Shown: positions 10,133-37,661, counted from the stretch's first letter. The stretch is 37,661 bases of DNA from a virus (IMGVR_UViG_2526164599_000009:1-37661), one strand, 5' to 3'. Numbers and translations are program-made. The notes: generated by a model from the sequence alone, not told the origin.

Positions 10133-10136
10133 ACCA

Positions 10137-10448
10137 ATGACGACACCAACCAGACGAATAAGTTTCTATCTGAAGCCCGCCGCCGTCAAGAACGAAGGCG
10201 AAGCATGCGCCTGGCTGGACAGCCTTACACCAGAAGCCCGCAAAAGCGGCCAACGTGTGGCTTTTCTGGCCGGGCTGGCACTTCTGAAAATGAATCCGGC
10301 AGAGGCTTACCGACTGGCTGCATGGGCTGATGATGAAGCGTTATCAGTGACACAAACCAGGACAGAACGCCCCGCATCACAGCCAGTATCAACCGCACAG
10401 ATAACCAGTCAGATGGCCGGAAATATCCGGGCGTTATTTCCCGAATAA
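10137..10448 (+). CDS. parR: ParR-like centromere-binding adaptor (putative)
   Basis: ATG 10137 after RBS AGGAG; RRISFYLKP...LDSLTPEARKSGQRVAFLAGLALL...IRALFPE parallels R1 ParR as recalled; directly downstream of parM. Confidence 0.65.
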   Translation: MTTPTRRISFYLKPAAVKNEGEACAWLDSLTPEARKSGQRVAFLAGLALLKMNPAEAYRLAAWADDEALSVTQTRTERPASQPVSTAQITSQMAGNIRALFPE

Positions 10449-10511: not shown

Positions 10512-10844
10512 ATGCAACACATTGACAGAGAAAAAGCGCAGCGACTGATTGAGCGGATGGAAGCGCTGGCGAAAGAAGAAAATGTCAACATCCAAAAAAT
10601 AGCTGAATGTGGCCAGATAGTTCTTCGTCGTGAAAAAGACCTCAAACAACTGATGTCTGGCGAAACCAGCAAAACATGGACTTCAGGCGAGGAAACGATT
10701 TATTGCAGCTTCTGCAATAAATCCCAGTACGAAGTCACAAAGGTGATTGCTGGACCGTCTGTTTACATCTGCAATGAGTGCGTGGATTTGTGCAATGAAA
10801 TTATCAGGAGAGAAGTGGCAGACAAAAAGGGAAAAAACACATGA
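10512..10844 (+). CDS. Small protein with ClpX-type C4 zinc-binding domain
   Basis: [38 protein letters not shown] is near-identical in pattern to the ClpX N-terminal zinc finger; about 65-aa helical N-terminal region; no AAA+ module. Confidence 0.75.
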
Positions 10845-22883: not shown

Positions 22884-23484
22884 TTCGTTGTTACCACCAT
22901 CAGCCAGCAATTTCATGCGTTGTGCCGAAGCCGTCGGAACACGCATTACAGACATTCCGGTAGACCTCAACACGCTGTGGTCGCCGGACACCTGCCCGGT
23001 GCATCTGCTGCCTTATCTCGCCTGGGCGTTTTCCGTTGACCGCTGGGATCGCAACTGGCCGGAAGAGACAAAGCGACAGGTGATTCGTGATGCATGGCTG
23101 ATACACCGACACAAAGGGACCATCAGCGCACTGCGAAGAGCCGTGGAGCCTCTCGGTTACCTGATTGAAGTAAAGGAGTGGTGGCAACTCAACGAGGAGC
23201 CGGGAACATTTCGCATTGTTGTCGGAGTACTTGATCAGGGCATCACCAATGAAATGTATCAGGAACTTGAGCGCCTTATTGCGGATGCAAAACCAGTAAG
23301 TCGCCATCTGACGGGGCTGGCGATCAGCCTGAGTGTGAACGGAAAGATTTTCGTTGGTACGGGATGCTATCACGGCGATGCCCTGACGGTTTATCCCTAC
23401 ACCCCGGAGTCCATTATTGTCGAAGGGGACTATTTCCCTGCCCCGGCCATTCATTTAATTGATAATCTGAGAGTAAACGCATGA
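22876..23484 (+). CDS. I: Baseplate protein (P2 gpI-like)
   Basis: ATG 22876 overlapping J stop; about 202 aa. Confidence 0.75.
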   Translation: MSNSLLPPSASNFMRCAEAVGTRITDIPVDLNTLWSPDTCPVHLLPYLAWAFSVDRWDRNWPEETKRQVIRDAWLIHRHKGTISALRRAVEPLGYLIEVKEWWQLNEEPGTFRIVVGVLDQGITNEMYQELERLIADAKPVSRHLTGLAISLSVNGKIFVGTGCYHGDALTVYPYTPESIIVEGDYFPAPAIHLIDNLRVNA

Positions 23485-25124
23485 CAGTGAAATACTACGC
23501 CATTCTGACTAATCAGGGCGCGGCACGACTGGCTAACGCGACGATGCTCGGCAGTAAGCTGAATCTGACGCAAATGGCCGTTGGTGATGCAAATGGTGTG
23601 TTACCAACACCAGACCCTGCACAAACAAAACTGATTAACCAGAAACGCATTGCACCGCTGAATCTTCTGAGTGTTGACCCTAACAATCAGAGCCAGATTA
23701 TTGCGGAGCAAATCATCCCTGAAAACGAGGGAGGATTCTGGATCCGTGAGATTGGTCTTTATGATGATGAAGGTGTACTCATTGCGGTGGCAAACTGCCC
23801 GGAAACGTACAAACCGCAGTTGCAGGAAGGCAGTGGACGCACCCAGACTATCCGCATGATTCTGGTTGTCACGAACACCGAAGCCATCACGCTGAAAATC
23901 GACCCGTCTGTGGTTCTGGCAACCCGCAAATATGTGGATGATAAAATATCAGAGCACGAACAATCACGACGTCACCCGGACGCCTCGCTGACCGTAAAAG
24001 GTTTTACTCAGTTAAGCAGTGCAATTAACAGTGAATCAGAAACACTGGCCGCAACACCGAAAGCGGTTAAGGCTGCATATGACCTGGCTAACGGGAAATA
24101 TACCGCCCAGAACGCCACCACTACACAAAAAGGGATTGTTCAGCTCAGTAGCGCCACGAACAGCACGTCTGAAACGCTGGCAGCGACACCAAAAGCTGTT
24201 AAGGTGGTAATGGATGAAACGAACAAGAAAGCACCATTAAACAGCCCGGCACTGACCGGAACGCCAACAACACCAACAGCGCCACAGGGGACTAATAATA
24301 CCCAGATCGCAAGCACAGCTTTCGTTATGGCCGCGATTGCCGCACTTGTAGATTCGTCACCTGATGCACTGAACACGCTGAACGAACTGGCTGCGGCGCT
24401 GGGCAATGACCCGAATTTTGCGACCACCATGACTAACGCGCTTGCGGGTAAGCAACCGAAGGATGCCATCCTGACGGCGCTGGCGAAGCTTGCTACATCA
24501 GCAGATAAACTCCCATATTTTACAGGGGCAGATCGTGCCGCGTTAACCGCGTTGACAAGTGTTGGACGTGCCATTCTTGGTAAAACCAGCACTCAGGGCG
24601 TTCTTGATTACCTTGGTTTGGGGGAAGGTTCTGCGCTGCCTGTTGGTGTGCCCGTTCCGTGGCCCTCAGCAACACCACCAACGGGCTGGCTGAAATGTAA
24701 CGGCGCAGCATTTTCTTCTGAAATGTATCCCGGACTGGCAAAGGCTTACCCCACCAATAAATTACCGGATTTACGGGGTGAATTTATTCGTGGCTGGGAT
24801 GATGGACGTAGTGCGGATGCGGGGAGAACAATATTATCCGCTCAAGGTGATGCCATACGTAATATCTATGGTGAGTTCAAGACTGTAAACACTGAAAATT
24901 ATTCAATATGGGAATCAGTAGGCTCGTTTAAGGGGGCAGTGGTGCCTTTAAATTCCTCAACAAACAATAGTTATTTCTCCTTAGTCAGAAGTATGGTGAC
25001 AGAAAGGACAGACGGCGCTGTTTACCCAAAAGTGATTGGCCTTGATGCTTCAAAAATTGTTCCAACTGCAAACGAAAACCGCCCACGCAACATTGCGTTT
25101 AATTACATCGTAAGGGCAGCATGA
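23481..25124 (+). CDS. H: Tail fibre protein (P2 gpH-like), constant part fused to variable cassette 1
   Basis: 547-aa ORF; tandem repeats LSSA(I/T)NS(E/T)SETLAATPKAVK; C-terminal 170 aa from the crossover site at about 24613 form an exchangeable cassette. Confidence 0.85.
   Translation: MTVKYYAILTNQGAARLANATMLGSKLNLTQMAVGDANGVLPTPDPAQTKLINQKRIAPLNLLSVDPNNQSQIIAEQIIPENEGGFWIREIGLYDDEGVLIAVANCPETYKPQLQEGSGRTQTIRMILVVTNTEAITLKIDPSVVLATRKYVDDKISEHEQSRRHPDASLTVKGFTQLSSAINSESETLAATPKAVKAAYDLANGKYTAQNATTTQKGIVQLSSATNSTSETLAATPKAVKVVMDETNKKAPLNSPALTGTPTTPTAPQGTNNTQIASTAFVMAAIAALVDSSPDALNTLNELAAALGNDPNFATTMTNALAGKQPKDAILTALAKLATSADKLPYFTGADRAALTALTSVGRAILGKTSTQGVLDYLGLGEGSALPVGVPVPWPSATPPTGWLKCNGAAFSSEMYPGLAKAYPTNKLPDLRGEFIRGWDDGRSADAGRTILSAQGDAIRNIYGEFKTVNTENYSIWESVGSFKGAVVPLNSSTNNSYFSLVRSMVTERTDGAVYPKVIGLDASKIVPTANENRPRNIAFNYIVRAA
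24613..24635 (+). other. Invertase crossover site 1 (hix/gix-like), inside H
   Basis: TTGGTTTGGGGGAAGG shared with five other sites; left half-site differs here (GATTACC instead of GAAAACG). Confidence 0.55.
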
Positions 25125-25146
25125 AAACGTTGGTTTGGGGGAAGGT
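25124..25146 (+). other. Invertase crossover site 2
   Basis: GAAAACGTTGGTTTGGGGGAAGG; resembles the Hin hixL core as recalled. Confidence 0.6.
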
Positions 25147-25638
25147 TCTGCGCTGCCTGTTGGTGTGCCCGTTCCATGGCCCTCAGCCACACCACCAACG
25201 GGCTGGCTGAAATGCAATGGTGCAGCATTTTCTTCTGAAATGTACCCCAAACTGGCAAAAGCCTACCCCGCAAATAAATTACCGGATTTACGGGGAGAAT
25301 TTATTCGCGGCTGGGATGATGGGCGCGGGGTGGATGCTGGCCGCGCTTTGCTTAATTGGCAGCCACACACAATTTTGGATCATGCACACTATATGGAATT
25401 ATGGACCGGGAACGGACTTGCCGTGGAAAGTGCACGGGAAGGATTAAACCCTGGAATACTGGCTACATACGGGGACGGGGGAATAGTTAAAACAGACGAA
25501 CCCGGTTTAAGGGTGCCTTCCTCACTACGAGCCATTAGCTCTCGTAATGTAAAACGGTTTGGTGAAATTAGTGGAAATGTAGGTACAGAAACTCGCCCTC
25601 GCAACGTTGCATTCAATTACATCGTAAGAGCCGCATGA
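25135..25638 (+). CDS. Promoterless tail-fibre C-terminal cassette 2
   Basis: 167 aa; shares the first roughly 60 aa (GEGSALPVGVPVPWPSATPPTGWLKCNGAAF...) and last roughly 15 aa (RPRN[IV]AFNYIVRAA) with the H C-terminus. Confidence 0.6.
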   Translation: MGEGSALPVGVPVPWPSATPPTGWLKCNGAAFSSEMYPKLAKAYPANKLPDLRGEFIRGWDDGRGVDAGRALLNWQPHTILDHAHYMELWTGNGLAVESAREGLNPGILATYGDGGIVKTDEPGLRVPSSLRAISSRNVKRFGEISGNVGTETRPRNVAFNYIVRAA

Positions 25639-25655
25639 AAACGTTGGTTTGGGGG
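25637..25655 (+). other. Invertase crossover site 3
   Basis: GAAAACGTTGGTTTGGGGG. Confidence 0.6.
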
Positions 25656-26125
25656 AAGGCTCTGCACTGCCCGTTGGTGTGCCTGTTCCATGGCCCTCAG
25701 CCACACCACCAACGGGCTGGCTGAAATGTAACGGTGCAGCATTTTCTTCTGAAATGTATCCCGGACTGGCAAAGGCTTACCCCACAAATAAATTACCGGA
25801 TTTACGCGGAGAATTTATCCGTGGCTGGGATGATGGGCGAGGAATTGATGCGGCACGCGCTTTATTGAGCATTCAAAACGGGATGTTGGAAAAACACCGC
25901 CATATTGTTGTAGCTAACGATGGATATGACACAAAAGATGAATGGGAGTTGGCTACGATTTTCAAAAAAACATATACACAAGGCAGGGGACTTGATGCCA
26001 CAAATACAGGAGGGAGTTTGATTCCATCACCAACGCTTCATTCACGAGGAAGTATTGGTAACACAGGTGGTAGTGAAACCCGCCCCCGCAATATTGCATT
26101 TAACTATATCGTGAGGGCGGCTTAG
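25649..26125 (+). CDS. Promoterless tail-fibre C-terminal cassette 3
   Basis: 158 aa; conserved N- and C-terminal ends, unique middle. Confidence 0.6.
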   Translation: MGEGSALPVGVPVPWPSATPPTGWLKCNGAAFSSEMYPGLAKAYPTNKLPDLRGEFIRGWDDGRGIDAARALLSIQNGMLEKHRHIVVANDGYDTKDEWELATIFKKTYTQGRGLDATNTGGSLIPSPTLHSRGSIGNTGGSETRPRNIAFNYIVRAA

Positions 26126-26131
26126 TTATAT

Positions 26132-26743
26132 TCAACTGGCTGATGCCAGTGGTATTTCCGGCAAGTTGATATCTGGTGCCATGTTTATATCCATTGCGTT
26201 CAGCGCGTCTATATAATCCAGCACGGCATTAAGCCGGGTGGTTTCTGCCTGCGTCAACTTCCGCCCGGCCCGCAACTTCAACTGAATCAGACTTATGGAA
26301 TCCATTGCCGCATCAGCCAGTGACTGGCGCTTGGTTTCTGCCGCTTCTACTGCGGCACGATGTTGTACCTCAGTATCTGTCACCCATTTTTCACCATCCC
26401 ATTTATCGTATGGTGTTAACGGGGCGATAGTGGTTGTATTTTTCGGGTAGTCACCCAGCGCCGTGATTTCTTCGGTGTTTCCCGTGTCAGTGCTATAGAC
26501 GGTTTCACCACGATGGTCTGGCGCATACTCCCATGAATTTAAATCCTCCGAACGGCGAATAGCATAGCCAGATTTATGTGCGCCTGGGGCATCTAAACAG
26601 GAATTAGCCGGAATACCAACACCCACAGCAAGATATTCAGTTGATTCGGAAATATATTCCCGTGTCTCACCATCATAGTTATAAACGACGATGTTTCCTG
26701 CCTGTACGGCAATAAGGTCATCATTTAATATCGCGTTATTCAT
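26132..26743 (-). CDS. Tail fibre assembly chaperone (Tfa/gpG-like)
   Basis: 203-aa ORF starting 1 nt inside the stop of minus-strand cassette 4 (TAATG); typical position for a fibre chaperone. Confidence 0.7.
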   Translation of the reverse strand: MNNAILNDDLIAVQAGNIVVYNYDGETREYISESTEYLAVGVGIPANSCLDAPGAHKSGYAIRRSEDLNSWEYAPDHRGETVYSTDTGNTEEITALGDYPKNTTTIAPLTPYDKWDGEKWVTDTEVQHRAAVEAAETKRQSLADAAMDSISLIQLKLRAGRKLTQAETTRLNAVLDYIDALNAMDINMAPDINLPEIPLASAS

Positions 26744-27205
26744 TATGCGGTTCTCACAATATAATTGAAGGCAATATTGCGTGGGCGGGCTTCATTCCCC
26801 CCTGAGGATTCCGTTCTGTATTGACTGGTAAATCTACCGTTAATTGCACCTTGCCGGACGGCGTTATCTGTCGACAACAGACTATCCCCTCCTTTGTCAT
26901 TTGGCACCAGTACCGTGTTATCCCACGCGTCCCATGACCGAATATTATGATAATGACTTCCTGTTAACCACCCCTGCATGCTTAAGATGCCCCTTCCGGC
27001 ATCCACCCCGCGCCCATCATCCCAGCCACGGATAAATTCACCGCGTAAGTCTGGTAATTTATTGGTGGGGTAAGCCATTGCCAGTCTGGGATACATTTCA
27101 GAAGAAAATGCTGCGCCGTTACATTTCAGCCAGCCCGTTGGTGGTGTTGCTGAGGGCCACGGAACAGGCACACCAACGGGCAGTGCAGAACCTTCTCCTA
27201 AACCA
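26743..27205 (-). CDS. Promoterless tail-fibre C-terminal cassette 4 (inverted)
   Basis: reads GLGEGSALPVGVPVPW... in frame upstream of the track GTG start at 27171; unique middle, conserved ends; directly followed by the Tfa gene. Confidence 0.6.
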
Positions 27206-27214
27206 ACGTTTTCA
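27190..27214 (-). other. Invertase crossover site 4 (inverted)
   Basis: reverse complement reads GAAAACGTTGGTTTAGGAGAAGG. Confidence 0.55.
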
Positions 27215-27715
27215 TGCGGCTCTTACGATGTAATTGAATGCAACGTTGCGAGGGCGAGTTTCTGTACCTACATTTCCACTAATTTCACCAAACCGTTTTA
27301 CATTACGAGAGCTAATGGCTCGTAGTGAGGAAGGCACCCTTAAACCGGGTTCGTCTGTTTTAACTATTCCCCCGTCCCCGTATGTAGCCAGTATTCCAGG
27401 GTTTAATCCTTCCCGTGCACTTTCCACGGCAAGTCCGTTCCCGGTCCATAATTCCATATAGTGTGCATGATCCAAAATTGTGTGTGGCTGCCAATTAAGC
27501 AAAGCGCGGCCAGCATCCACCCCGCGCCCATCATCCCAGCCGCGAATAAATTCTCCCCGTAAATCCGGTAATTTATTTGCGGGGTAGGCTTTTGCCAGTC
27601 CGGGATACATTTCAGAAGAAAATGCTGCACCATTGCATTTCAGCCAGCCCGTTGGTGGTGTGGCTGAGGGCCATGGAACGGGCACACCAACAGGCAGCGC
27701 AGAACCTTCCCCCAA
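27212..27715 (-). CDS. Promoterless tail-fibre C-terminal cassette 5 (inverted near-identical copy of cassette 2)
   Basis: 167 aa, differs from cassette 2 by one residue (G for K). Confidence 0.6.
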   Translation of the reverse strand: MGEGSALPVGVPVPWPSATPPTGWLKCNGAAFSSEMYPGLAKAYPANKLPDLRGEFIRGWDDGRGVDAGRALLNWQPHTILDHAHYMELWTGNGLAVESAREGLNPGILATYGDGGIVKTDEPGLRVPSSLRAISSRNVKRFGEISGNVGTETRPRNVAFNYIVRAA

Positions 27716-27727
27716 ACCAACGTTTTC
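27705..27727 (-). other. Invertase crossover site 5 (inverted)
   Basis: reverse complement reads GAAAACGTTGGTTTGGGGGAAGG. Confidence 0.6.
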
Positions 27728-28289
27728 ATGCTGCCCTTACGATGTAATTAAACGCAATGTTGCGTGGGCGGTTTTCGTTTGCAGTTGGAACAATTTTTGA
27801 AGCATCAAGGCCAATCACTTTTGGGTAAACAGCGCCGTCTGTCCTTTCTGTCACCATACTTCTGACTAAGGAGAAATAACTATTGTTTGTTGAGGAATTT
27901 AAAGGCACCACTGCCCCCTTAAACGAGCCTACTGATTCCCATATTGAATAATTTTCAGTGTTTACAGTCTTGAACTCACCATAGATATTACGTATGGCAT
28001 CACCTTGAGCGGATAATATTGTTCTCCCCGCATCCGCACTACGTCCATCATCCCAGCCACGAATAAATTCACCCCGTAAATCCGGTAATTTATTGGTGGG
28101 GTAAGCCTTTGCCAGTCCGGGATACATTTCAGAAGAAAATGCTGCGCCGTTACATTTCAGCCAGCCCGTTGGTGGTGTTGCTGAGGGCCACGGAACGGGC
28201 ACACCAACAGGCAGCGCAGAACCTTCCCCCAAACCAACGTTTTCGTTTTTATCCCTACCTATACCAACTATGTATTTTTCACGAAACAA
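27726..28289 (-). CDS. Promoterless tail-fibre C-terminal cassette 6 (inverted copy of the H C-terminus)
   Basis: from GEGSALPV onward identical in protein and DNA to H residues about 378-547; the N-terminal 17 codons of the track ORF are outside the cassette. Confidence 0.6.
   Translation of the reverse strand: MFREKYIVGIGRDKNENVGLGEGSALPVGVPVPWPSATPPTGWLKCNGAAFSSEMYPGLAKAYPTNKLPDLRGEFIRGWDDGRSADAGRTILSAQGDAIRNIYGEFKTVNTENYSIWESVGSFKGAVVPLNSSTNNSYFSLVRSMVTERTDGAVYPKVIGLDASKIVPTANENRPRNIAFNYIVRAA
28222..28245 (-). other. Invertase crossover site 6 (inverted)
   Basis: reverse complement reads GAAAACGTTGGTTTGGGGGAAGG; about 60 bp from the invertase start. Confidence 0.6.
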
Positions 28290-28303
28290 AGAGGATGTTT
28301 TTT

Positions 28304-28903
28304 ATGCAAATTGGCTATATTCGTGTGTCAACAAATGACCAGAACACGGATTTACAACGCAATGCACTGAACTGCGCAGGATGTGAACTGATTTTTGAAG
28401 ATAAAATCAGCGGAACGAAATCAGCCAGACCGGGATTGAAAAAACTGCTCAGAACGCTATCAGAAGGAGATACGCTGGTTGTCTGGAAGCTGGACAGACT
28501 GGGCAGAAGTATGAAACACCTGATCACGCTTATTGAGGAATTGCGGGAAAAAGGTGTTAATTTCCGTAGTCTGACGGACAGCATTGACACATCAACACCC
28601 ATGGGGCGTTTCTTTTTTCACGTCATGGGGGCTTTAGCCGAAATGGAACGTGAATTAATTGTAGAGCGTACACTGGCCGGGCTGGCAGCAGCACGCGCAC
28701 AAGGACGCATTGGCGGACGTCGCCCGAAGTTGACAAAAGAACAACACGAGCAAATAGCGAGGCTGATTAAAAACGGTCATGACAGGAAACAACTGGCGAT
28801 CATTTACGACATCGGCATATCGACGATTTATCGTTATCACCCTGTAGGCGATATACAGGCTGAAGAAACAACCAGGCAGACTCAGGAAAATGAAAACCGC
28901 TAA
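28304..28903 (+). CDS. Serine DNA invertase (Hin/Gin/Cin/Pin family)
   Basis: ATG 28304; N-terminus MQIGYIRVSTNDQNTDLQRNAL with catalytic Ser in the RVST context; C-terminal HTH (GISTIYRY); 199 aa. Confidence 0.9.
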   Translation: MQIGYIRVSTNDQNTDLQRNALNCAGCELIFEDKISGTKSARPGLKKLLRTLSEGDTLVVWKLDRLGRSMKHLITLIEELREKGVNFRSLTDSIDTSTPMGRFFFHVMGALAEMERELIVERTLAGLAAARAQGRIGGRRPKLTKEQHEQIARLIKNGHDRKQLAIIYDIGISTIYRYHPVGDIQAEETTRQTQENENR

Positions 28904-28921
28904 TCTGACCATTAGCGGTTT
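28893..28921. terminator. Bidirectional hairpin between convergent invertase and gpU genes
   Basis: perfect stem ACCGCTAAT / ATTAGCGGT with loop CTGACC, flanked by A-run upstream and TTTTG downstream; overlaps the invertase stop. Confidence 0.5.
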
Positions 28922-28929
28922 TGCGTTAA

Positions 28930-29424
28930 TCAAAACAGCCCTTTAACGGAGCTGGCCGCGCTGTTAAGGGATGATGTGACCTTATCTTTGAAGCCGGACA
29001 GCATATCACTGAACGATGAGGATTGCAGGCGCTCCCGCAAATCCTCATCACAGCGTTCAAGAGTCAGTGAAAATTCTATCTTTTTCGCCTTACCGTAGCG
29101 ATCAAACTCGGAGCGGGTCGTATTCGTTCCGGTCAGGACATACATGCCGTAAATCTGCCCGACACCATCAATCAGAGGCCAGGGGCGTCCTGTATATGCC
29201 TGCGAGGTCAGCAACGAAAGCGACACTTCGCCACCTGTAATTTCAGGATAAAGCACACCAGAAAGAACGATGCGATCATCGCCTGCCCCGATATACTGCC
29301 AGCTTGCTGAACGGTTAACGCGTTCATTTTTCACATGCCGCCAGCTTTTGTTTTGCTGTAACTGCTGATGCGGCAACGTGCGCAGCTCAAAAACAAACAT
29401 GCCATAGATCATCATCATGGCCAT
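28930..29424 (-). CDS. U: Tail protein (P2 gpU-like)
   Basis: 164-aa ORF with RBS GAGGAG; WPLIDG...IYGMYV pattern as in P2 U as recalled. Confidence 0.75.
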   Translation of the reverse strand: MAMMMIYGMFVFELRTLPHQQLQQNKSWRHVKNERVNRSASWQYIGAGDDRIVLSGVLYPEITGGEVSLSLLTSQAYTGRPWPLIDGVGQIYGMYVLTGTNTTRSEFDRYGKAKKIEFSLTLERCDEDLRERLQSSSFSDMLSGFKDKVTSSLNSAASSVKGLF

Positions 29425-29430
29425 GACTCC

Positions 29431-32238
29431 TCAATCTTTATCGTAAAAACTGCCACGCCCGGCACGGGCGCGCCGTTCCATCTCTGCCCTGACCATTTCA
29501 CCGACCAGTTTCGCCAGTTCGCGGGGATTCTGTGTAACAACGTTATGCAGATGAACATGAATTTCACCACCAAATCCGGAGGCAACAGGCTCCCGGTTAC
29601 GGGAAGTTACAGGAACTGATGCCACTGGAGATCGTATGGCCTCCGCCACCGGGCGGGAGCTGGCCGCAACAACAGGGACCAGCGCCGGAGGCAGCGGAGC
29701 CGGGACCACGGGTGTGATATTAATTGCGGGGGCAGGCTTACTGGCCTGCGCAATCTTCCGCTCCTGCCACTCCCCACGAACAGCAAGTGCTCGGGGCAGG
29801 TTTTTAAAGACAATATCGCCGGGGCCAATGCGTTTTTTCGTCTCCTCAACCAGCTTACCTGTGTTATCAGCAATTTTGCTGAGTCTGCGTAGCGTCCCGG
29901 TATTGCTGTCTGTGAGCGGTTTGTTGTCTTTGGGTTTATCACCTCCGGTGCCATTGCCATTTTCCACAGGCTTCGGCGGATTGATTTTCGCCAGGTCCCC
30001 TTGAAGTAAGGCAACCTTGTCCTGAAGAATGGCCGCACGCTGTGCGTCTTCGATTTTCTTTCTCGCCCTTTCCGCTTCATCCGGAAGAACACCGAGTTTT
30101 TCAAGTATCCACGCCAGCGTATCCAGCAACATTTTTGCAGGCGTCAGAACAAGCTGTAACGCGCCACCAAGAACGTTACCGAATATCTCGCCAGCACTGG
30201 TACATTTATCCAGCGTTTCCTTGCTGGACTCCATCGGTGACAGCAGCGATTTAAACCAGTTAAACACCTGGCTGATCCCGCTTCCGATTGCGTCAAAAAC
30301 AGGGCCAAACCGTTCAAAGGTTTCACGCAACGGGTTCAGCCTTTCCATAATCCCGCTGAACACCCCGGCAAAAAATGCCCTGATGGGATCCCAGTATTTC
30401 CAGATAAGAACGGCAGCGCCGGCAAGCGCAGCCACGATAAGACTAACCGGACTGAACAGCGCCCCGATAGCTCCTCCCAGCAAAGAAACAGAACCCGTCA
30501 CCATTCCCCACAGCGCAGGCAACACCCTGATGACATTCATTGACCGGGTAAGAATGTCGAAACCAAGACGCAAGGTGGCCAGCTTCCCGTAAAGCACCCC
30601 AATAACCAGCGACAACGAGCCAATCGTTGCAGTCATTGCCAGCAACGCACCGCTTGCTATCAGTAGCTGGCGCGTCAGTACCGGATGGGCCTGCGCCAGC
30701 GAGGTGATTTTTTCAAGCACCCGCGTGAGCCACTGCGTGACAGAACGCAGCGGACCGTCAACCAGATCACTGATGCGAATACGAAGACCTTCCCATGCGC
30801 TGTCGAGATTTTTCAGGTCTCCATCAAGATTATCGGCCATTACTTTTGCAACGCGATCGGCCTCTCCCCTTGCCCCCTGCAATTCTCTGGTCAGTTTTTG
30901 CAGTTCTCCTGAACCAGCCGCCGCAACAAGCGTCTGCAAACCAACGAACGCCTCTTCTCCGGCGATGTCCTTGAAGAAGGAGACCTGGTCCACCTGTCCG
31001 TATTTTTGTGTCGCCTTATAGAGATCAAGCAGCACATCCTCCATCGGGCGCATTTTGCCTCTGGCGTCAGCAACTGACACCCCCTGCTCTTTCAGTGCAT
31101 CAGCCGCAGCTTTTGGCGGTGATGCAAGGCGGGACAGACTTGCGCGCATGGCCGTACCAGCATCGCTTCCGCGAAGACCATTATTGGCAAGCATCCCGGC
31201 CATGGCCGCCGCTTCTTCAAGACTGATACCAAGTTTTGCGGCAACCGGACCGGTATACTTCATGGTTTCGCCCAGCGCGCGTAAATCAGTATTGGTCCGG
31301 GTGAATGCTGCTGTCAGCGTATCGCCAACCCGGTCCATTTGATCGGCTGTCAGGTTGAACTGTGTGAGGATATTGGAGCCTATATCAGCCGTCTCGCCGA
31401 GTTCGACGCCACCTGCCAGCGCCATATTAAGAACACCGGGCAATGCGGCCTGAATGGCCTGCGGAGTAAAACCAGCCATTGCCAGAAAGCTCTGCCCACT
31501 GGCGGCATCACTCGCAGTAAACTGTGTTTCAGAACCAAGTTTTAACGCCTGCTCACGCAGCGCCTTAAACTGCGGGCTGTTTTTGTCGATTCGCGTCAGT
31601 GCCTGAACGCGGGACATCTCTTTGCCGAACCCGATCGCAGGCTGCAAAAAACGCCCGGCAGCATAGCCGCCAGCCGCTGCAGCACCAATTGCCAGCGCAC
31701 CACCTGTTTTCAGTTTTCCCGCGGTTTCCTGCGCGCGCGAATACCGCTCACGCGCCCGCGTTACACGCGCAAGCGCCTGCCGTTCGCGTTCAAGCTGGTT
31801 GTTGTACTGTTCGGTGCGTCTGATGGCCTGCTGGATGGTGTTATCGCTGCCTGTCAGGGAAATGCCGTGGCGTTTCAGCTCTCCGCCAAGTTCCCGCATT
31901 TTCTGAATTTCCCGTGTGCGCGATTCATTCAGGCGTTCAAGCCGGCTGCTTAACTGCTGCATCAGCTTTTGTTGTTTTTCGCTGAGCACTGTACCCGTGC
32001 GTTGTAACTGATTAAGGGCGTTAAGCTGGCGTCGTGCTTTCACGATACCCGCATCCGCTTTACTGACAGCGTCGCGGGCGCGCTCAAATGAACGCGCCTG
32101 ACGCTCGAGATTTTTGATCGCCCCCTGCGTTCGCTGGATGGAGTCACCAAACTGCCCCATCAGGCGGCGGGCGTTTTCGGCAGGCCGGGTCAGCCTGTCA
32201 ACGGCGCTGAAAGCGACCCGGATATCAAGAGTCTTCAT
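29431..32238 (-). CDS. T: Tail tape measure protein (P2 gpT-like)
   Basis: roughly 935-aa ORF from ATG 32238 (RBS GGGAG) or 947 aa from GTG 32274; coiled-coil N-terminus, Gly/Ala-rich hydrophobic middle. Confidence 0.85.
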   Translation of the reverse strand: MKTLDIRVAFSAVDRLTRPAENARRLMGQFGDSIQRTQGAIKNLERQARSFERARDAVSKADAGIVKARRQLNALNQLQRTGTVLSEKQQKLMQQLSSRLERLNESRTREIQKMRELGGELKRHGISLTGSDNTIQQAIRRTEQYNNQLERERQALARVTRARERYSRAQETAGKLKTGGALAIGAAAAGGYAAGRFLQPAIGFGKEMSRVQALTRIDKNSPQFKALREQALKLGSETQFTASDAASGQSFLAMAGFTPQAIQAALPGVLNMALAGGVELGETADIGSNILTQFNLTADQMDRVGDTLTAAFTRTNTDLRALGETMKYTGPVAAKLGISLEEAAAMAGMLANNGLRGSDAGTAMRASLSRLASPPKAAADALKEQGVSVADARGKMRPMEDVLLDLYKATQKYGQVDQVSFFKDIAGEEAFVGLQTLVAAAGSGELQKLTRELQGARGEADRVAKVMADNLDGDLKNLDSAWEGLRIRISDLVDGPLRSVTQWLTRVLEKITSLAQAHPVLTRQLLIASGALLAMTATIGSLSLVIGVLYGKLATLRLGFDILTRSMNVIRVLPALWGMVTGSVSLLGGAIGALFSPVSLIVAALAGAAVLIWKYWDPIRAFFAGVFSGIMERLNPLRETFERFGPVFDAIGSGISQVFNWFKSLLSPMESSKETLDKCTSAGEIFGNVLGGALQLVLTPAKMLLDTLAWILEKLGVLPDEAERARKKIEDAQRAAILQDKVALLQGDLAKINPPKPVENGNGTGGDKPKDNKPLTDSNTGTLRRLSKIADNTGKLVEETKKRIGPGDIVFKNLPRALAVRGEWQERKIAQASKPAPAINITPVVPAPLPPALVPVVAASSRPVAEAIRSPVASVPVTSRNREPVASGFGGEIHVHLHNVVTQNPRELAKLVGEMVRAEMERRARAGRGSFYDKD

Positions 32239-32461
32239 TGTCTGCACTCCCGCTGCGAAGTGCCGCCCGCTCACGCCAGCTAACCACTTCGCCGGGCGTC
32301 ATCATGAAGATTTCGGCGGGCGACCAGTTAAAAATAACGGCAATATCTGCCACAAAGTCTTCTATGTGCTCAAAGCACACAATCGTGATCAGGCTTCCGT
32401 CGCCTGTTCGTTCTTCCCGCCAGAGTCCGCACCGCTCAAAAAATTTACGGCAACCGCACAT
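32225..32461 (-). CDS. E' extension, expressed as E+E' by -1 frameshift
   Basis: -1 frame ORF continuing from AAT TTT TTG (forward 32438-32446) to 32225; overlaps the T start; analogous to P2 E/E' and lambda G/GT. Confidence 0.6.
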   Translation of the reverse strand: MCGCRKFFERCGLWREERTGDGSLITIVCFEHIEDFVADIAVIFNWSPAEIFMMTPGEVVSWRERAALRSGSADNEDS

Positions 32462-32754
32462 AACTGAATAAAGTCACGGGATGCCATTTTTTTGATCGTC
32501 ACTTCATCCAGTCGCGGTGATGTCACGCGTGACAGCAGCGTAAACATGGATTCCGCTTTCAGATTCAGCACATCAGACAGCGACAAATCTCGCAGAGATC
32601 CAGCCTGCTCAATAGCTCCGGTGATCTCCACATACGTGATTTTTTCGCCGCCTCGCTCAATTGGTTGGGTAAGTTTTACGCCACGCTCACTGGTTTCTTT
32701 CACAGTGTCAGCAACGACCGTGTTTTCGGTATCGATGTTTTTCGTCTCTTTCAT
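32389..32754 (-). CDS. E: Tail assembly chaperone (P2 gpE-like)
   Basis: 121-aa ORF with RBS AAGGAG; contains slippery TTTTTTG near its 3' end. Confidence 0.7.
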   Translation of the reverse strand: MKETKNIDTENTVVADTVKETSERGVKLTQPIERGGEKITYVEITGAIEQAGSLRDLSLSDVLNLKAESMFTLLSRVTSPRLDEVTIKKMASRDFIQLCAVAVNFLSGADSGGKNEQATEA

Positions 32755-32808
32755 CAGGAAACTCCTTTCAGTCAGAGGCGACGCACTGCGCCGCCTGCAT
32801 ATTACTTA

Positions 32809-33321
32809 TCAGCCAAGCCCAAGCGCGGAACGGATGCGATCGGGCACAATGTCCTTGCCGTCCTTCCGGTAAATGAAGTTCAGCAGGTCAATCTCCCACA
32901 ACGGGCGATCGTTAACACTCAGCTTGTAGTAGGTGTTTTTAATGGCGTAAGTGTGTGATGTGGCTTCGCCCTGTTTGGCTTCCCCCATATCAATTTCCGT
33001 CACACGTCCGCGCATCTCGATTTCATACAGATCGCTTTCTGCATCGGTGTAGTATTCACCCGCAAAACGCAGCAGCGTGCCGTCAATCGTGCCGCCATAT
33101 TTAAGGAACAGCGCACGAACAGCTCCCCCCATAACAAAACTCGCATCAAGCGCGGAGTCGTCCAGACCGAGATCAATACTTACCGCCCCCATCATGCCAC
33201 CACCACGATAGCTGTCGGTTTTGCGCGTCAGTTTAGGCAGGGTGACGGACGTCACCTTACCCACTTCGTTTTCACCATCCACAAACAGCGTAAAAAAGCG
33301 AAGATGTTTTGGTACAGCCAT
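32809..33321 (-). CDS. FII: Tail tube protein (P2 gpFII-like)
   Basis: 170-aa ORF immediately downstream of the sheath gene. Confidence 0.85.
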   Translation of the reverse strand: MAVPKHLRFFTLFVDGENEVGKVTSVTLPKLTRKTDSYRGGGMMGAVSIDLGLDDSALDASFVMGGAVRALFLKYGGTIDGTLLRFAGEYYTDAESDLYEIEMRGRVTEIDMGEAKQGEATSHTYAIKNTYYKLSVNDRPLWEIDLLNFIYRKDGKDIVPDRIRSALGLG

Positions 33322-34505
33322 CAGACACCTCCCAGCACCGCAAATGCGGGACCAAAGAATTCATCAGTAAACGACTGGTAAAGCTCCATGTCTTCCAGCG
33401 GGGGAACAGGCGTATATTTGTAGCGAATACGCACACGCCCCTGACGTAAATTCGTGGTGCCGTTATCCACCACGTCATACCAGCACGACGCCCCAATCAG
33501 TTTCCCGGCAGTAACCAGTGAATCCAGTTTTGCCCTGATGGCACTGATAACATCTTTCACGTTCGCAGGCGTCAGTGGACTGTCGATGGTTTCAAACTGC
33601 GCTTCCGCAATTGAATCAGCCAGCACCTGTGCGGTTCGGGTATACACCTCAAAGATGTAGGCGTTCGTTTCCGGTGTGCGGTTGCCCCAGAAGCGGAACC
33701 CGTTGCGACGAATAATGGTCGTGATTTCTTTGTTGTTGAGGCTGTTGGCATCGCTGTCTTCGGCCTGCAACGACCAGAACACATGCCTGGACATCCCCAG
33801 CACATTTTTAACCGGAACGTTGGACAGTGATTTGTGCCATCCCTGCTCATGGTCAATGTACGCACGAAGGCCGCACGCATAGGCAGGCGCGGGGAACGTT
33901 TCGTTTTTGCCACTTTTCGGGTTGTAGGCGATGAAGTCCGGCCATAAGAGCATCACCTCACGTTCGTTGAATTTCTGGCGGTAGGTAATCACCTCAGCCA
34001 TCGTGTTACAGCCGTGACATGAGGCATACACAAACGCGCGCAGTTTACCCGCAATCACGCACAGGGATTTTGTCACCGCCTCCGTGTCCAGCTCCGGCGC
34101 GGCCAGAATACGCGGACGGTATCCGATGCTTTCATCCTGCTCTGCAACAAGCAGCGCATACATCCCCGTATAGCTGCCGTCAGATTCAGAACCACCGATA
34201 ACCAGTTGATCCTGCGTCTTTCCGTCTTCTTCTTTGTGTTCAGCCACGCGAACGACGATCACCTTTGTGCTCACCTGGTCTGCGATGGCCTTAAGCGCAC
34301 GATAAAGCGTCCCCGTTGTCCCGCATTTTCCCAGCACGTCATTGACGCGGGTCAGCAGTGTGGGCTTGTTCAGCGGGAACAGCTTCGCGTCCGCATCATC
34401 CGCCGTTGCCACGATACCGATAACGCTGGAATCAACATCGTTAATCGCTGTTACCAGGTCGGTATTTTCCGTAACACGGGCACCATGAAAACGAGTTTCA
34501 CTCAT
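33321..34505 (-). CDS. FI: Tail sheath protein (P2 gpFI-like)
   Basis: 394-aa ORF with RBS AAGGGG; size and context as P2 FI. Confidence 0.9.
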   Translation of the reverse strand: MSETRFHGARVTENTDLVTAINDVDSSVIGIVATADDADAKLFPLNKPTLLTRVNDVLGKCGTTGTLYRALKAIADQVSTKVIVVRVAEHKEEDGKTQDQLVIGGSESDGSYTGMYALLVAEQDESIGYRPRILAAPELDTEAVTKSLCVIAGKLRAFVYASCHGCNTMAEVITYRQKFNEREVMLLWPDFIAYNPKSGKNETFPAPAYACGLRAYIDHEQGWHKSLSNVPVKNVLGMSRHVFWSLQAEDSDANSLNNKEITTIIRRNGFRFWGNRTPETNAYIFEVYTRTAQVLADSIAEAQFETIDSPLTPANVKDVISAIRAKLDSLVTAGKLIGASCWYDVVDNGTTNLRQGRVRIRYKYTPVPPLEDMELYQSFTDEFFGPAFAVLGGV

Positions 34506-36447: not shown

Positions 36448-36774
36448 ATGACTAAAAATACTCGTTTTTCCCCCGAAGTCCGTCAGAGGGCGATTCGTAT
36501 GGTTCTGGAAAGTCAGGGCGAATATGACTCACAGTGGGCGGCAATTTGTTCCATTGCCCCAAAGATTGACTGTACACCGGAGACTCTGCGTGTCTGGGTA
36601 CGCCAGCATGAGCGGGATACCGGAGGCGGTGATGGCGGGCTCACCACCGCTGAACGTCAGCGTCTGAAAGAGCTGGAACGTGAAAATCGTGAACTGCGCC
36701 GCAGTAACGATATCCTTCGCCAGGCTTCCGCTTATTTTGCGAAGGCGGAGTTCGACCGCCTCTGGAAAAAGTGA
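36448..36774 (+). CDS. IS3-family transposase OrfA (HTH, leucine zipper)
   Basis: [22 protein letters not shown]...[29 protein letters not shown] matches IS629-group OrfA as recalled. Confidence 0.85.
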
Positions 36775-37661
36775 TGCCACTGCTGGATAAGCTGCGTAAG
36801 CTGTACGGGGTCGGACCGGTATGCAGTGAACTACATATTGCCCCGTCAACGTATTACCACTGTCAGCAACAGCGACATCATCCTGATAAACGCAGTGCCC
36901 GTGCGCAGCGCGATGACTGGCTGAAGAAAGAGATACTGCGCGTATACGATGGGAATCATCAGGTATACGGTGTGCGTAAAGTCTGGCGTCAGTTGTTACG
37001 GGAAGGAATCAGGGTAGCCAGATGTACAGTGGCGCGCCTCATGGCGGTTATGGGACTTGCCGGTGTTCTCCGGGGTAAAAAGGTCCGCACTACCGTCAGC
37101 CGGAAAGCCGTTGCCGCAGGCGACCGCGTAAACCGTCAGTTTGTGGCAGAACGTCCTGACCAGTTGTGGGTGGCTGATTTTACTTACGTCAGCACATGGC
37201 AGGGGGTCGTCTATGTGGCGTTCATCATTGATGTGTTTGCCGGATACATCGTGGGGTGGCGGGTCTCATCGTCTATGGAAACGACATTCGTGCTGGATGC
37301 TCTGGAGCAGGCGTTATGGGCCCGTCGACCGTCCGGCACAGTCCATCACAGTGATAAAGGTTCTCAGTATGTATCGCTGGCCTACACACAGCGGCTTAAG
37401 GAAGCCGGATTACTGGCATCAACAGGAAGTACTGGTGACTCGTATGACAACGCGATGGCGGAGAGCATCAATGGCCTTTACAAAGCGGAGGTAATACACC
37501 GTAAGAGCTGGAAAAACCGGACAGAAGTGGAGCTGGCCACACTCACGTGGGTGGACTGGTATAACAATCGACGATTGCTGGGAAGGCTGGGCCATACTCC
37601 TCCGGCAGAAGCAGAAAAAGCTTATTATGCTTCCATCGGAAACGATGATCTGGCAGCCTGA
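36771..37661 (+). CDS. IS3-family transposase OrfB (DDE catalytic domain)
   Basis: -1 frame relative to orf[18 protein letters not shown] and [13 protein letters not shown] motifs; stop at the last 3 bases of the window. Confidence 0.85.

What the first reader, a model, noticed from the sequence alone, without database searches (positions are those of the whole stretch)
24600..28903. Multiple-inversion tail-fibre system with six hix-like crossover sites and a Hin/Gin-type invertase
The H C-terminus is followed by two more co-oriented promoterless cassettes, then a Tfa gene and three cassettes in inverted orientation, then a serine invertase. Each cassette is preceded by GAAAACGTTGGTTTGGGGGAAGG, which resembles hix/gix crossover sites. 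Three sites in each orientation allow several inversions and up to four distinct fibre tips (cassettes 1=6, 2~5, 3, 4), more complex than the single invertible segment of Mu G or P1 C and comparable to the Min system of p15B.
Basis: partly seen in the sequence, partly recalled or inferred. Interest (0 to 1): 0.7.

Follow-up and report, generated by a model that had tools for sequence, protein, structure and literature searches.

The report
Six-site tail-fibre shuffling switch in prophage
A prophage in E. coli carries a DNA-flipping enzyme and six flip sites that can swap four alternative tips onto its tail-fibre gene; this is a real but already well-known kind of host-range switch (the "Min" system of plasmid p15B), and it is very common in E. 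coli.

Summary
Six 26-bp crossover sites lie at 24601-28249, three on each strand, where chance predicts none. Each sits at the start of a promoterless tail-fibre 3' cassette. The order is A> B> C> tfa< D< B'< A'<, followed by an intact serine invertase.

- The sites are mix sites. Site 1 matches p15B mixQ''R' at 26 of 26 bases; the other five match published mix sites at 23-24 of 26.
- The invertase is 95% identical to that of a P1-like phage-plasmid carrying the same kind of array. It is 198/199 identical to the invertase of the E2348/69 prophage, whose three-site version was shown experimentally to shuffle.
- A model of the topology gives 240 isomers, the number published for p15B.

Related E. 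coli prophages carry 2 to 8 sites and P1-like plasmids up to 17, all obeying the same order rule. Genomes with 100% identical cassettes hold them in different permutations.

One caveat: the window is a 2012 draft contig (E. coli DEC13D). The mirrored, near-identical A/B duplication is what a chimeric assembly of two isomers of a four-site array would produce.

Verdict: a new member of a known kind, of modest interest.

The parts
23481..24612 (+). Constant 5' part of the tail-fibre gene H (P2 gpH-like N-terminus and fibre repeats), up to the crossover
   Evidence: The ORF 23481-25124 encodes 547 aa with PF12571 at residues 1-150 and PF03406 repeats. The crossover dinucleotide is at 24613-24614.
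24601..24626 (+). Crossover site 1 (TTCTTGATTACC TT GGTTTGGGGGAA), inside H
   Evidence: Its reverse complement is 26/26 identical to p15B mixQ''R' (table). The same left half-site is found in all related loci.
24615..25124 (+). Cassette A, currently fused to H (Collar domain plus variable tip plus conserved C-terminus)
   Evidence: Translation; Collar domain at H residues 389-436.
25118..25143 (+). Crossover site 2. The stop codon TGA of cassette A lies in its left half.
   Evidence: 23/26 to interior mix sites.
25132..25638 (+). Cassette B (silent, co-oriented with H)
   Evidence: The exact protein occurs in 26 other contigs.
25632..25657 (+). Crossover site 3
   Evidence: 24/26 to mixN''O'.
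25646..26125 (+). Cassette C (silent); left arm of the central double-ended segment
   Evidence: The C-tfa-D unit is found in both orientations in other genomes.
26132..26743 (-). Tail-fibre assembly (chaperone) gene tfa, 203 aa. It is the only one in the array and is translationally coupled to cassette D.
   Evidence: PF02413, E = 1e-30. The TAATG overlap with the cassette D stop codon is seen.
26743..27204 (-). Cassette D (silent, inverted); right arm of the central segment
27193..27218 (-). Crossover site 4 (variant right half GGTTTAGGAGAA)
27212..27718 (-). Cassette B' (inverted copy of B, 3 nt different)
   Evidence: The B' protein allele is found only in this assembly.
27707..27732 (-). 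Crossover site 5
27726..28235 (-). Cassette A' (inverted copy of A, 512/512 nt identical)
28224..28249 (-). Crossover site 6, the invertase-proximal boundary of the invertible region
   Evidence: 24/26 identical to p15B mixMl''L'.
28304..28903 (+). Din-family (Min-type) serine DNA invertase, 199 aa, with catalytic Ser9 in the motif YIRVSTNDQ
   Evidence: PF00239 + PF02796. Gin structure 4m6f matches at E = 3e-91 over residues 1-185. Protein identity is 95% to a P1-like plasmid invertase, 82% to PinE, 74% to Cin, 72% to Gin and 198/199 to E2348/69.
28322..28393 (+). Stretch homologous to the annotated Cin recombinational enhancer (nt 19-90 of the invertase gene)
   Evidence: The P1 record annotates the enhancer at nt 19-90 of cin. 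Here this stretch is 79% identical to cin and 88% to pinE, against 60-64% (cin) and 72-78% (pinE) in the next two 72-nt segments. This is inferred by homology only.
28893..28922 (.). Hairpin between the convergent invertase and gpU genes; a likely bidirectional terminator
   Evidence: 12-pair stem flanked by A and T runs (sequence).

Best explanation
This is a Min-type multiple DNA inversion system (a serine-invertase 'shufflon') in the tail-fibre gene of a P88/P2-like (Peduoviridae) prophage of E. coli DEC13D.

Layout. The late operon V-W-J-I-H transcribes a constant 5' part of H that ends at crossover site 1. Downstream lie five segments bounded by six 26-bp mix-type sites. Four are single cassettes (A, B, B', A'). 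One is a central double-ended segment (C, tfa, D). All sites share a TT core in the same reading frame.

Reaction. The invertase gene sits just outside site 6. Helped by host Fis bound to an enhancer in the first ~90 nt of its own gene, the invertase pairs any + site with any - site and makes 2-nt staggered cuts at the core. It then rotates and religates, inverting everything between the two sites.

Consequences. Every product again reads constant H, in-frame cassette, stop. Successive inversions therefore permute the segments (240 arrangements, 60 distinguishable here) and place tip A, B, C or D on the fibre. Each lysogen lineage or phage burst thus contains virions with different receptor specificities, which is host-range bet-hedging.

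Shown here: the sites, frames, cassettes, intact invertase, homology to mix/Min, the order rule across relatives, and permuted but identical arrays in other genomes.

Inferred from family knowledge: Fis/enhancer dependence, cleavage chemistry and the host-range effect.

Not shown: inversion in this particular strain.
For: - Six sites against 0 expected by chance, and no further Din-like site elsewhere in the window.
- All six cassettes are intact and in the same frame relative to the TT core.
- The sites match the published p15B mix sites at 23-26 of 26 positions, with positional correspondence: site 1 to the constant-part site, site 6 to the invertase-proximal site.
- The invertase is full length with Ser9, and matches the Gin structure at E = 3e-91. 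It is 95% identical to the invertase of a P1-like phage-plasmid with the same array type. It is 198/199 identical to that of E2348/69, whose three-site locus L013 (sites 1986 and 1547 bp apart) fits the ~2.2-kb and ~1.8-kb inversions and four PCR-verified variants of PMC4272514.
- The inversion-only model reproduces 4 isomers for 3 sites and 240 for 6 sites. Both figures are published.
- In 29 related loci with 2-17 sites, all forward cassettes precede the tfa segment and all reversed ones follow it. The tfa segment occurs in both orientations.
- H9Ecoli and HD12481 have six cassettes that are 100% identical in nucleotide sequence but ordered N>B>D>tfa>C<A<L< versus L>D>tfa>C<N<B<A<, at least 4 inversions apart. 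L026 and L029 likewise share identical cassettes in different order, and their cassettes are 99.8-100% identical to the window's A, B, C and D.
- Deleting gin locks a comparable three-tip shufflon, and only one tip infects the tested host (PMC13418256).
Against: - There are no read-level or population data for this strain, so current activity is inferred.
- The window is a draft WGS contig (AIHI01000013.1). A/A' are 100% identical and B/B' 99.4%. The B' allele and the H::A fusion protein occur only in this assembly. No complete E. coli genome has this arrangement. The physical array may therefore have four sites rather than six.
- tfa is antisense to H in the present state, and no promoter above chance was found for it. 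How tips A, B and C obtain a chaperone, or whether they need one, is unexplained.
- The enhancer is inferred only from homology to the annotated Cin enhancer.
- RecA-mediated recombination between the 220-1266-bp inverted repeats could produce some of the same inversions.
Confidence: 0.85

Rival explanations
1. The six-site mirrored arrangement is an assembly chimera. Under this reading the real DEC13D array has four sites (A, B and the C-tfa-D segment: 12 isomers, the same four tips), and the sequenced culture was a mixture of isomers. The assembler joined the left part of isomer H::A>B>C>tfa<D< to the right part of isomer H::C>tfa<D<B<A<, so A and B were placed twice in mirror image.
For: - The source is a 2012 draft contig.
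- A and A' are 512/512 identical and B and B' 513/516 identical, yet B differs by 19 nt or more from B-type cassettes in most other related loci.
- The two proposed parent isomers are only two inversions apart. Their junctions are exactly those seen in the window, and D<B< and A>B> junctions exist separately in complete genomes.
- No other assembly has this arrangement, the H::A protein or the B' allele.
- The closest relatives, with cassettes 99.8-100% identical, have each cassette once.
- Forde et al. explicitly warn that alternative-allele contigs can create artefactual duplications in phage tail regions (PMC4134206).
Against: - B and B' differ by a clustered 3-nt patch (25245-25250), which simply re-using the same reads should not give.
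- Duplicated cassettes on both sides of tfa do occur in complete assemblies, for example A, C, T and G in the 17-site plasmid array L014 and L twice in L008.
- The region lies inside a 447-kb contig with no break.
Confidence: 0.4
2. The array is a frozen relic. The cassettes and sites are remnants of past shuffling, but the system no longer inverts in this lysogen, for example because the invertase is not expressed or the prophage is defective.
For: - No sigma-70-like promoter above chance lies upstream of the invertase.
- Several related loci carry frameshifted or truncated cassettes: E, H, M, O, P and Q.
- An IS3-family element lies at the right end of the window.
Against: - All six cassettes, tfa and the invertase are intact here.
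- The invertase is one residue from that of a locus shown to invert in culture.
- Din invertases are normally expressed weakly from poor promoters (family knowledge).
- The prophage appears complete, from integrase to gpD and ogr.
Confidence: 0.1
3. The rearrangements are driven mainly by RecA-dependent homologous recombination between the conserved cassette ends (about 220-270 bp at 88-92% identity, or 1266 bp at 98% here), and not by the invertase.
For: - There are long, highly similar inverted repeats.
- Right half-site variants (GGGGG versus AGGAG) are not tied to cassette type across genomes. The B' 3-nt patch matches the A/C version. Both show homologous exchange or gene conversion in the conserved regions.
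Against: - The repeats are centred on bona fide 26-bp mix sites next to a dedicated invertase.
- A gin deletion locks a comparable shufflon.
- Isomers with 100% identical cassettes show clean exchanges.
- Homologous recombination would also be expected to delete between the direct repeats, yet the arrays persist with up to 17 units.
Confidence: 0.1

Closest known systems
Min multiple inversion system of plasmid p15B (E. coli 15T-; Sandmeier, Iida, Arber 1990-1992)
   Same: - It has six 26-bp crossover sites, and the window's sites match them at 23-26 of 26 positions with positional correspondence.
- A Din-family invertase sits just outside one end.
- A constant 5' fibre gene is fused to alternative 3' cassettes.
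- The 240-isomer topology is the same.
- Present-day P1-like phage-plasmids with the same design share cassette types A, B, C, D, G, L and S and a 95% identical invertase.
   Different: - The host element is an integrated P88/P2-like prophage with a gpH-type constant part, not a P1-like plasmid prophage with an S-type fibre.
- Two cassette types are present twice in mirror image, so only four tips and 60 distinguishable isomers result.
- The p15B sequence itself (X62121) was not available, so the comparison runs through its published sites and through P1-like plasmids.
Three-repeat shufflon of the P2-like prophage of EPEC E2348/69 (Goldberg et al. 2014, PMC4272514)
   Same: - It is the same prophage family with the same gene order.
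- The invertase is 198/199 identical.
- It has the same C-tfa-D central segment (95-96% nt identity) and the same site sequences.
- It was shown experimentally to exist as four coexisting variants.
   Different: It has three sites, one extra cassette (L) and 4 isomers, against six sites and 240 isomers here.
Single-segment invertible tail-fibre regions: Mu G/Gin, P1 C/Cin, e14 P/Pin, EC958 Phi2
   Same: - The same enzyme family (72-82% protein identity).
- 26-bp dix-type sites and an enhancer inside the invertase gene.
- Inversion swaps fibre C-termini.
   Different: They have two sites and two states, and each alternative fibre end has its own tfa (U/U', TfaP/TfaE). Here there are six sites and one tfa shared by or restricted to the central segment.
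FR-phi tail-fibre shufflon of an Enterobacter temperate phage (PMC13418256)
   Same: A Gin-type recombinase sits downstream of a fibre gene with several alternative C-termini. Gin-dependence and a host-range consequence were demonstrated.
   Different: It has three tips, and it is a different phage with lambda-like regulatory genes. Its sequence was not compared here.
R64 shufflon (Rci / sfx, PilV adhesin)
   Same: The logic is the same: multiple inversions among clustered cassettes select the C-terminus of an adhesin.
   Different: It uses a tyrosine recombinase (Rci) and asymmetric sfx sites, on a conjugative pilus gene. It is not homologous to this system.

Membership tests
Din family of serine DNA invertases (Hin/Gin/Cin/Pin/Min) | A protein of about 190 aa with an N-terminal resolvase catalytic domain carrying the active-site serine near residue 9-10, and a C-terminal HTH | tested here: met
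   PF00239 at residues 3-135 (E = 1.5e-51) and PF02796 at 138-180. Ser9 lies in the motif YIRVSTNDQ. The protein aligns end to end with Gin structures 4m6f and 3uj3 at E ~ 1e-91. Protein identity to Gin, Cin and Pin is 72-82%.
Din family of serine DNA invertases (Hin/Gin/Cin/Pin/Min) | 26-bp recombination sites made of two imperfect 12-bp half-sites around a 2-bp core, matching the dix consensus and identical in core between partners | tested here: met
   All six sites read TTC(C/T)CC(C/T)AAACC AA (C/G)GT... with an AA/TT core in every site, compared against the published table.
Din family of serine DNA invertases (Hin/Gin/Cin/Pin/Min) | A Fis-dependent recombinational enhancer, located within the 5' part of the invertase gene | tested here: inconclusive
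   The stretch homologous to the enhancer annotated in the P1 record (cin nt 19-90) is the best-conserved part of the 5' half of the gene: 79% to cin against 60-64% in the two adjacent segments, and 88% to pinE. Fis binding cannot be tested with these tools.
Min-type multiple inversion system (p15B) | More than two crossover sites, in both orientations, clustered within one fibre-gene region so that invertible segments overlap | tested here: met
   Three + sites and three - sites lie within 3.65 kb. Nine single inversions are possible from the present state. Caveat: the count could be four if the duplication is an assembly artefact.
Min-type multiple inversion system (p15B) | Site sequences of the mix type | tested here: met
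   Matches of 26/26, 24/26, 24/26, 23/26, 23/26 and 23/26 to the published mix sites. The best non-mix match is 21/26, to pixL.
Min-type multiple inversion system (p15B) | Every inversion fuses the constant 5' gene part in frame to a different 3' cassette ending in a stop codon | tested here: met
   All six cassettes share the frame xxVGLGEGS... relative to the core and end in a stop codon. The stop of each upstream cassette lies in the left half-site, in another frame.
Min-type multiple inversion system (p15B) | Isomeric arrangements actually coexist or interconvert | not testable with these tools
   No reads are available for this strain. Indirect support comes from identical cassettes in different permutations in other genomes and from the published experiment on the sister locus.
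R64-type shufflon | Tyrosine recombinase Rci acting on asymmetric sfx repeats | tested here: not met
   The only recombinase adjacent to the array is a serine invertase. The sites are dix/mix type.
Mu G / P1 C type single invertible segment | Exactly two inverted sites flanking two fibre-end plus tfa pairs | tested here: not met
   There are six sites and a single tfa. Relatives with this exact invertase include two-site versions (L001, L006, L012).

The most novel reading that the evidence does not exclude
The mirrored A/B duplication is real and is a footprint of how these arrays grow. An unequal crossover at a mix site or conserved cassette end, between two different isomers of a four-site array (H::A>B>C>tfa<D< crossed with H::C>tfa<D<B<A<), gives exactly this palindromic six-site array. 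Repeating the process would explain arrays of 8 sites in prophages and 17 in P1-like plasmids, which carry many mirrored and tandem duplicates.

Two further observations go with this. P2-like prophages and P1-like phage-plasmids draw on one shared cassette pool and near-identical Min-type invertases, so co-resident elements could shuffle each other in trans. All tips also seem to make do with a single tfa, which is antisense to H in about two thirds of the sampled genomes that carry this tfa segment.
Probability: 0.3. Interest if true: 0.45.

Novelty: new member of a known kind. Interest (0 to 1): 0.3.

Why it matters
The finding documents that the classic six-site Min design, described for one plasmid in 1990, is a common and modular host-range device. 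The identical invertase protein is listed in over 7,000 blocks of the public assembly collection searched.

It offers a simple order rule and an isomer count (n! x (n+1) x 2 for n single cassettes) that can be used to annotate such loci.

It also gives a practical warning. These loci are population mixtures, so draft assemblies can freeze, break or duplicate them. The silent cassettes are routinely mis-annotated as separate 'phage tail proteins'.

For phage host-range prediction or engineering, the cassette catalogue (A, B, C, D, F, G, L, N, S, T, U and others) is a ready-made set of interchangeable receptor-binding tips.

Tried and rejected
1. A late (Ogr/B-type) promoter firing into the array from the invertase side, to express tfa when it is antisense to H. 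A TGT-N12-ACA dyad does lie at 28271-28288, but the window has fewer such dyads (3) than chance predicts (9.3). The known late-operon regions lack exact copies, and the spacing to any -10-like element is wrong. Not supported.

2. The inverted FI-FII-E-T-U tail block as an adaptation linked to the array, through read-through into tfa. Phage P88 (Xuanwuvirus) has the same inverted block with an ordinary two-tfa segment. A P2-like phage with an invertase keeps the canonical order. A hairpin terminator also separates gpU from the invertase. Rejected as a link; the block is a lineage trait.

3. Internal promoters for the silent cassettes. The number of promoter-like hits equals the shuffle expectation, 8 against 7.9.

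4. Extra quasi-sites elsewhere in the window that might explain the inverted tail block. None was found.

5. Reading the original p15B papers and Johnson's review (PMC206102, PMC53420, PMC4384473). They are not held. The mix site sequences and the 240-isomer figure were taken from secondary sources.

6. Finding this exact arrangement in complete E. coli genomes. None covers 80% or more of the query.

7. PADLOC scan of the cargo genes gave no hits.

Full report
**What is in the sequence**

Three copies are on the + strand (24606, 25123, 25637) and three on the - strand (27191, 27705, 28222). No shuffle of the window gave any match. A looser Din-family pattern finds only these six plus one weak hit in the body of H.

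Read as 26-bp units, the sites are a variable left half, a TT core, and GGTTT(G/A)GG(G/A)GAA. Their coordinates are 24601-24626, 25118-25143 and 25632-25657 on the + strand, and 27193-27218, 27707-27732 and 28224-28249 on the - strand.

Each site opens a reading frame. It begins xxVGLGEGSALPVGVPVPWPSATPPTGWLKCNG..., contains a Collar domain, has a variable stretch of about 60-95 residues, and ends ...RPRN(I/V)AFNYIVR(A/T)A-stop. The stop codon of each upstream cassette lies inside the left half-site, in a different frame, so no read-through occurs.

The first cassette is fused to the P2 gpH-like constant part, giving H at 23481-25124 (547 aa). The order is H::A> B> C> tfa< D< B'< A'<. It is followed by a 59-bp spacer and a 199-aa serine invertase at 28304-28903.

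A and A' are identical over 512 nt. B and B' differ at three clustered positions (25245, 25249, 25250), giving one K/G change. Together the arms form a 1266-nt inverted repeat.

The single tfa gene (26132-26743, minus strand) is translationally coupled to cassette D through a TAATG overlap. It converges on cassette C with 6 bp between the two stop codons.

**What it is**

The invertase has the resolvase and HTH_7 domains and Ser9. It aligns over residues 1-185 with the Gin crystal-structure sequences at E ~ 1e-91. Its protein identity to other invertases is:
- 72% to Gin, 74% to Cin and 82% to PinE;
- 95% to the invertase of a P1-like phage-plasmid that carries the same kind of array;
- 198/199 residues to the invertase of the E2348/69 P2-like prophage.

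The six sites were compared with the published Din-family sites (Table 3 of PMC3241671). In every case the best match is a p15B mix site.
- Site 1, in the constant part of H, is 26/26 identical to mixQ''R'.
- Site 6, next to the invertase, is 24/26 identical to mixMl''L'.
- The four interior sites are 23-24/26 identical to the interior mix sites.
- The best non-mix match is 21/26.

The stretch corresponding to the enhancer annotated in the P1 record (cin nt 19-90) is the best-conserved part of the 5' half of the gene. This fits a Fis/enhancer-dependent reaction but does not prove it.

**How it should work**

I modelled the region as four single cassette segments (start-end) plus one central segment with a cassette start at both ends (C-tfa-D). 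Inversion was allowed only between oppositely oriented sites.

Every reachable state has forward cassettes, then the central segment, then reversed cassettes. The model gives:
- 240 states for six sites, the number reported for p15B (PMC2481393);
- 4 states for three sites, the number verified for E2348/69.

In general the count is n! x (n+1) x 2 for n single cassettes.

Because A equals A' and B nearly equals B', only 60 states are distinguishable here, and there are four tips (A, B, C, D). Nine single inversions are possible from the present state. In half of all states tfa is co-oriented with H.

**Evidence that such arrays really shuffle**

The exact invertase protein is listed in over 7,000 blocks of the public collection. 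I examined 29 related loci. The prophages carry 2, 3, 4, 5, 6 or 8 sites, and two P1-like plasmids carry 9 and 17.

In every locus all forward cassettes precede the tfa segment and all reversed ones follow it. The left and right boundary half-sites stay constant throughout. The central segment occurs in both orientations. The same cassette types (A, B, G, L, N) turn up on either side of it.

The most telling comparisons are between arrays with identical cassettes.
- The complete genomes H9Ecoli and HD12481 have six cassettes that are 100% identical in nucleotide sequence. They are arranged N>B>D>tfa>C<A<L< and L>D>tfa>C<N<B<A<, which are at least four inversions apart.
- L026 and L029 have five 100% identical cassettes in different order. 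Those cassettes are 99.8-100% identical to the window's A, B, C and D.

Published experiments cover the rest of the argument.
- Locus L013 of E2348/69 has three sites, 1986 and 1547 bp apart. This fits the ~2.2-kb and ~1.8-kb inversions and the four PCR-verified variants of Goldberg et al..
- PacBio data showed about 50% inversion of tail-fibre segments in EC958 prophages, with 26-bp sites including TCCTCAATTACCTT GGTTTAGGAGAA.
- In phage FR-phi, deleting gin locks a three-tip shufflon, and only one tip infects the tested host.

**Main caveat**

The exact H::A protein exists in only one contig, AIHI01000013.1 of E. coli DEC13D. This is a draft assembly and is evidently the source of the window.

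Several observations make the mirrored duplication suspect.
- The B' allele is unique to this assembly.
- No complete genome has this arrangement.
- The closest relatives carry A and B only once each, together with L.
- The window equals the left part of isomer H::A>B>C>tfa<D< joined to the right part of isomer H::C>tfa<D<B<A<. These are two states of a four-site array, two inversions apart.
- Forde et al. warn that alternative-allele contigs can create artefactual duplications in phage tail regions.

Two observations argue against an artefact.
- B and B' differ by a 3-nt patch.
- Mirrored duplicates occur in complete assemblies, such as the 17-site array L014.

I put the chance of an artefact at about 0.4. 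Either way the locus is a Min-type system with the same four tips. If it is an artefact, that artefact is itself evidence that the DEC13D culture was an isomer mixture. If it is real, an unequal crossover between two isomers is the simplest origin, and it suggests how these arrays expand.

**Open point**

tfa is antisense to H in the present state, and in about two thirds of the related loci that carry this tfa segment. No promoter for it stands out. A TGT-N12-ACA dyad in the spacer before the invertase gene is not significant.

The inverted FI-U tail block that converges on the array is a lineage trait. Phage P88 shares it and has an ordinary two-tfa segment, and a hairpin terminator intervenes. 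Whether tips A, B and C need Tfa, and how they would obtain it, cannot be decided here.

**Comparison and verdict**

The closest systems are p15B Min (same sites, same topology, a near-identical enzyme in its P1-like relatives) and the three-site shufflon of the E2348/69 prophage (same phage family, an enzyme one residue different). Mu G/Gin, P1 C/Cin and e14 P/Pin are the two-site relatives. The R64 shufflon is analogous only, because it uses a tyrosine recombinase.

The finding is correct and well read by the first stage. It is a new member of a known kind, a six-site Min-type array in a P88/P2-like prophage, and not a new mechanism. Interest is modest (0.3). Its value lies in annotation, in host-range cassette catalogues, and in the warning about assembling such loci.

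Noticed in passing
window 9173-10445 (+): A ParM/StbA actin-like segregation ATPase (319 aa; PF06406 + PF21523, E = 6e-82) and a StbB-like plasmid stability protein (PF10784) sit in the P2 'old/tin' cargo hotspot, between the replication gene A (6274-9096) and the portal gene. This is a plasmid partition module inside an integrated prophage. A small ClpX-type zinc-finger protein follows at 10512-10841. No PADLOC defence models matched.
   Followed up: partly
window 28930-34505 (-) and about 34.5-35.8 kb (+): The tail genes FI-FII-E-T-U are on the minus strand and converge on the invertase, while gpD is on the plus strand. This block is inverted relative to the canonical P2 order H-G-FI-FII-E-T-U-D. 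Phage P88 (Xuanwuvirus) has the same order, so it is a lineage trait. A P2-like phage from strain T22 carries an invertase but keeps the canonical order.
   Followed up: yes
window 28271-28288: A TGT-N12-ACA dyad, the form of P2 Ogr / 186 B activator sites, lies in the 59-bp spacer between crossover site 6 and the invertase start codon. There are only three such dyads in the window, against 9.3 expected by chance, so it is not significant on its own.
   Followed up: partly
window 36448-37661 (+): IS3-family transposase genes (orfA with HTH_Tnp_1; orfB with rve) run off the right end of the window, just beyond the prophage's gpD/ogr end.
   Followed up: no
L014 (NZ_CP135665.1, 81922-93559) and L015 (MF510496.1): P1-like phage-plasmids of about 97 kb carry the same design on a much larger scale: 17 and 9 crossover sites. 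They have many duplicated cassettes in tandem and in mirror image, a single tfa, and cassette types shared with the P2-like prophages. One of them (pMCR_SCKP-LL83) is from Klebsiella pneumoniae.
   Followed up: partly
right half-sites in window (25646-25657, 27193-27204) and loci L001-L013: The right half-site variants GGTTTGGGGGAA and GGTTTAGGAGAA are not tied to cassette type. C carries one and D the other in the window, the reverse holds in L001-L003, and both are the same in L005, L009 and L013. Together with the 3-nt patch in B' that matches the A/C version, this points to gene conversion or homologous exchange within the conserved cassette 5' regions, in addition to site-specific crossover.
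   Followed up: partly
L002, L004, L008, L009, L010 (related E. coli prophages): Several related arrays contain frameshifted or truncated cassettes, including the expressed one in L009 and L002. Many of these prophage fibre loci therefore appear to be decaying, or the assemblies carry errors, even though the invertase is identical.
   Followed up: no
RefSeq annotation of L001, L002, L013, L020-L023: The silent 3' cassettes are annotated as independent 'phage tail protein' genes, or as pseudogenes 'missing N-terminus'. The crossover sites are not annotated at all. This is the mis-annotation that Forde et al. 2014 warned about.
   Followed up: no
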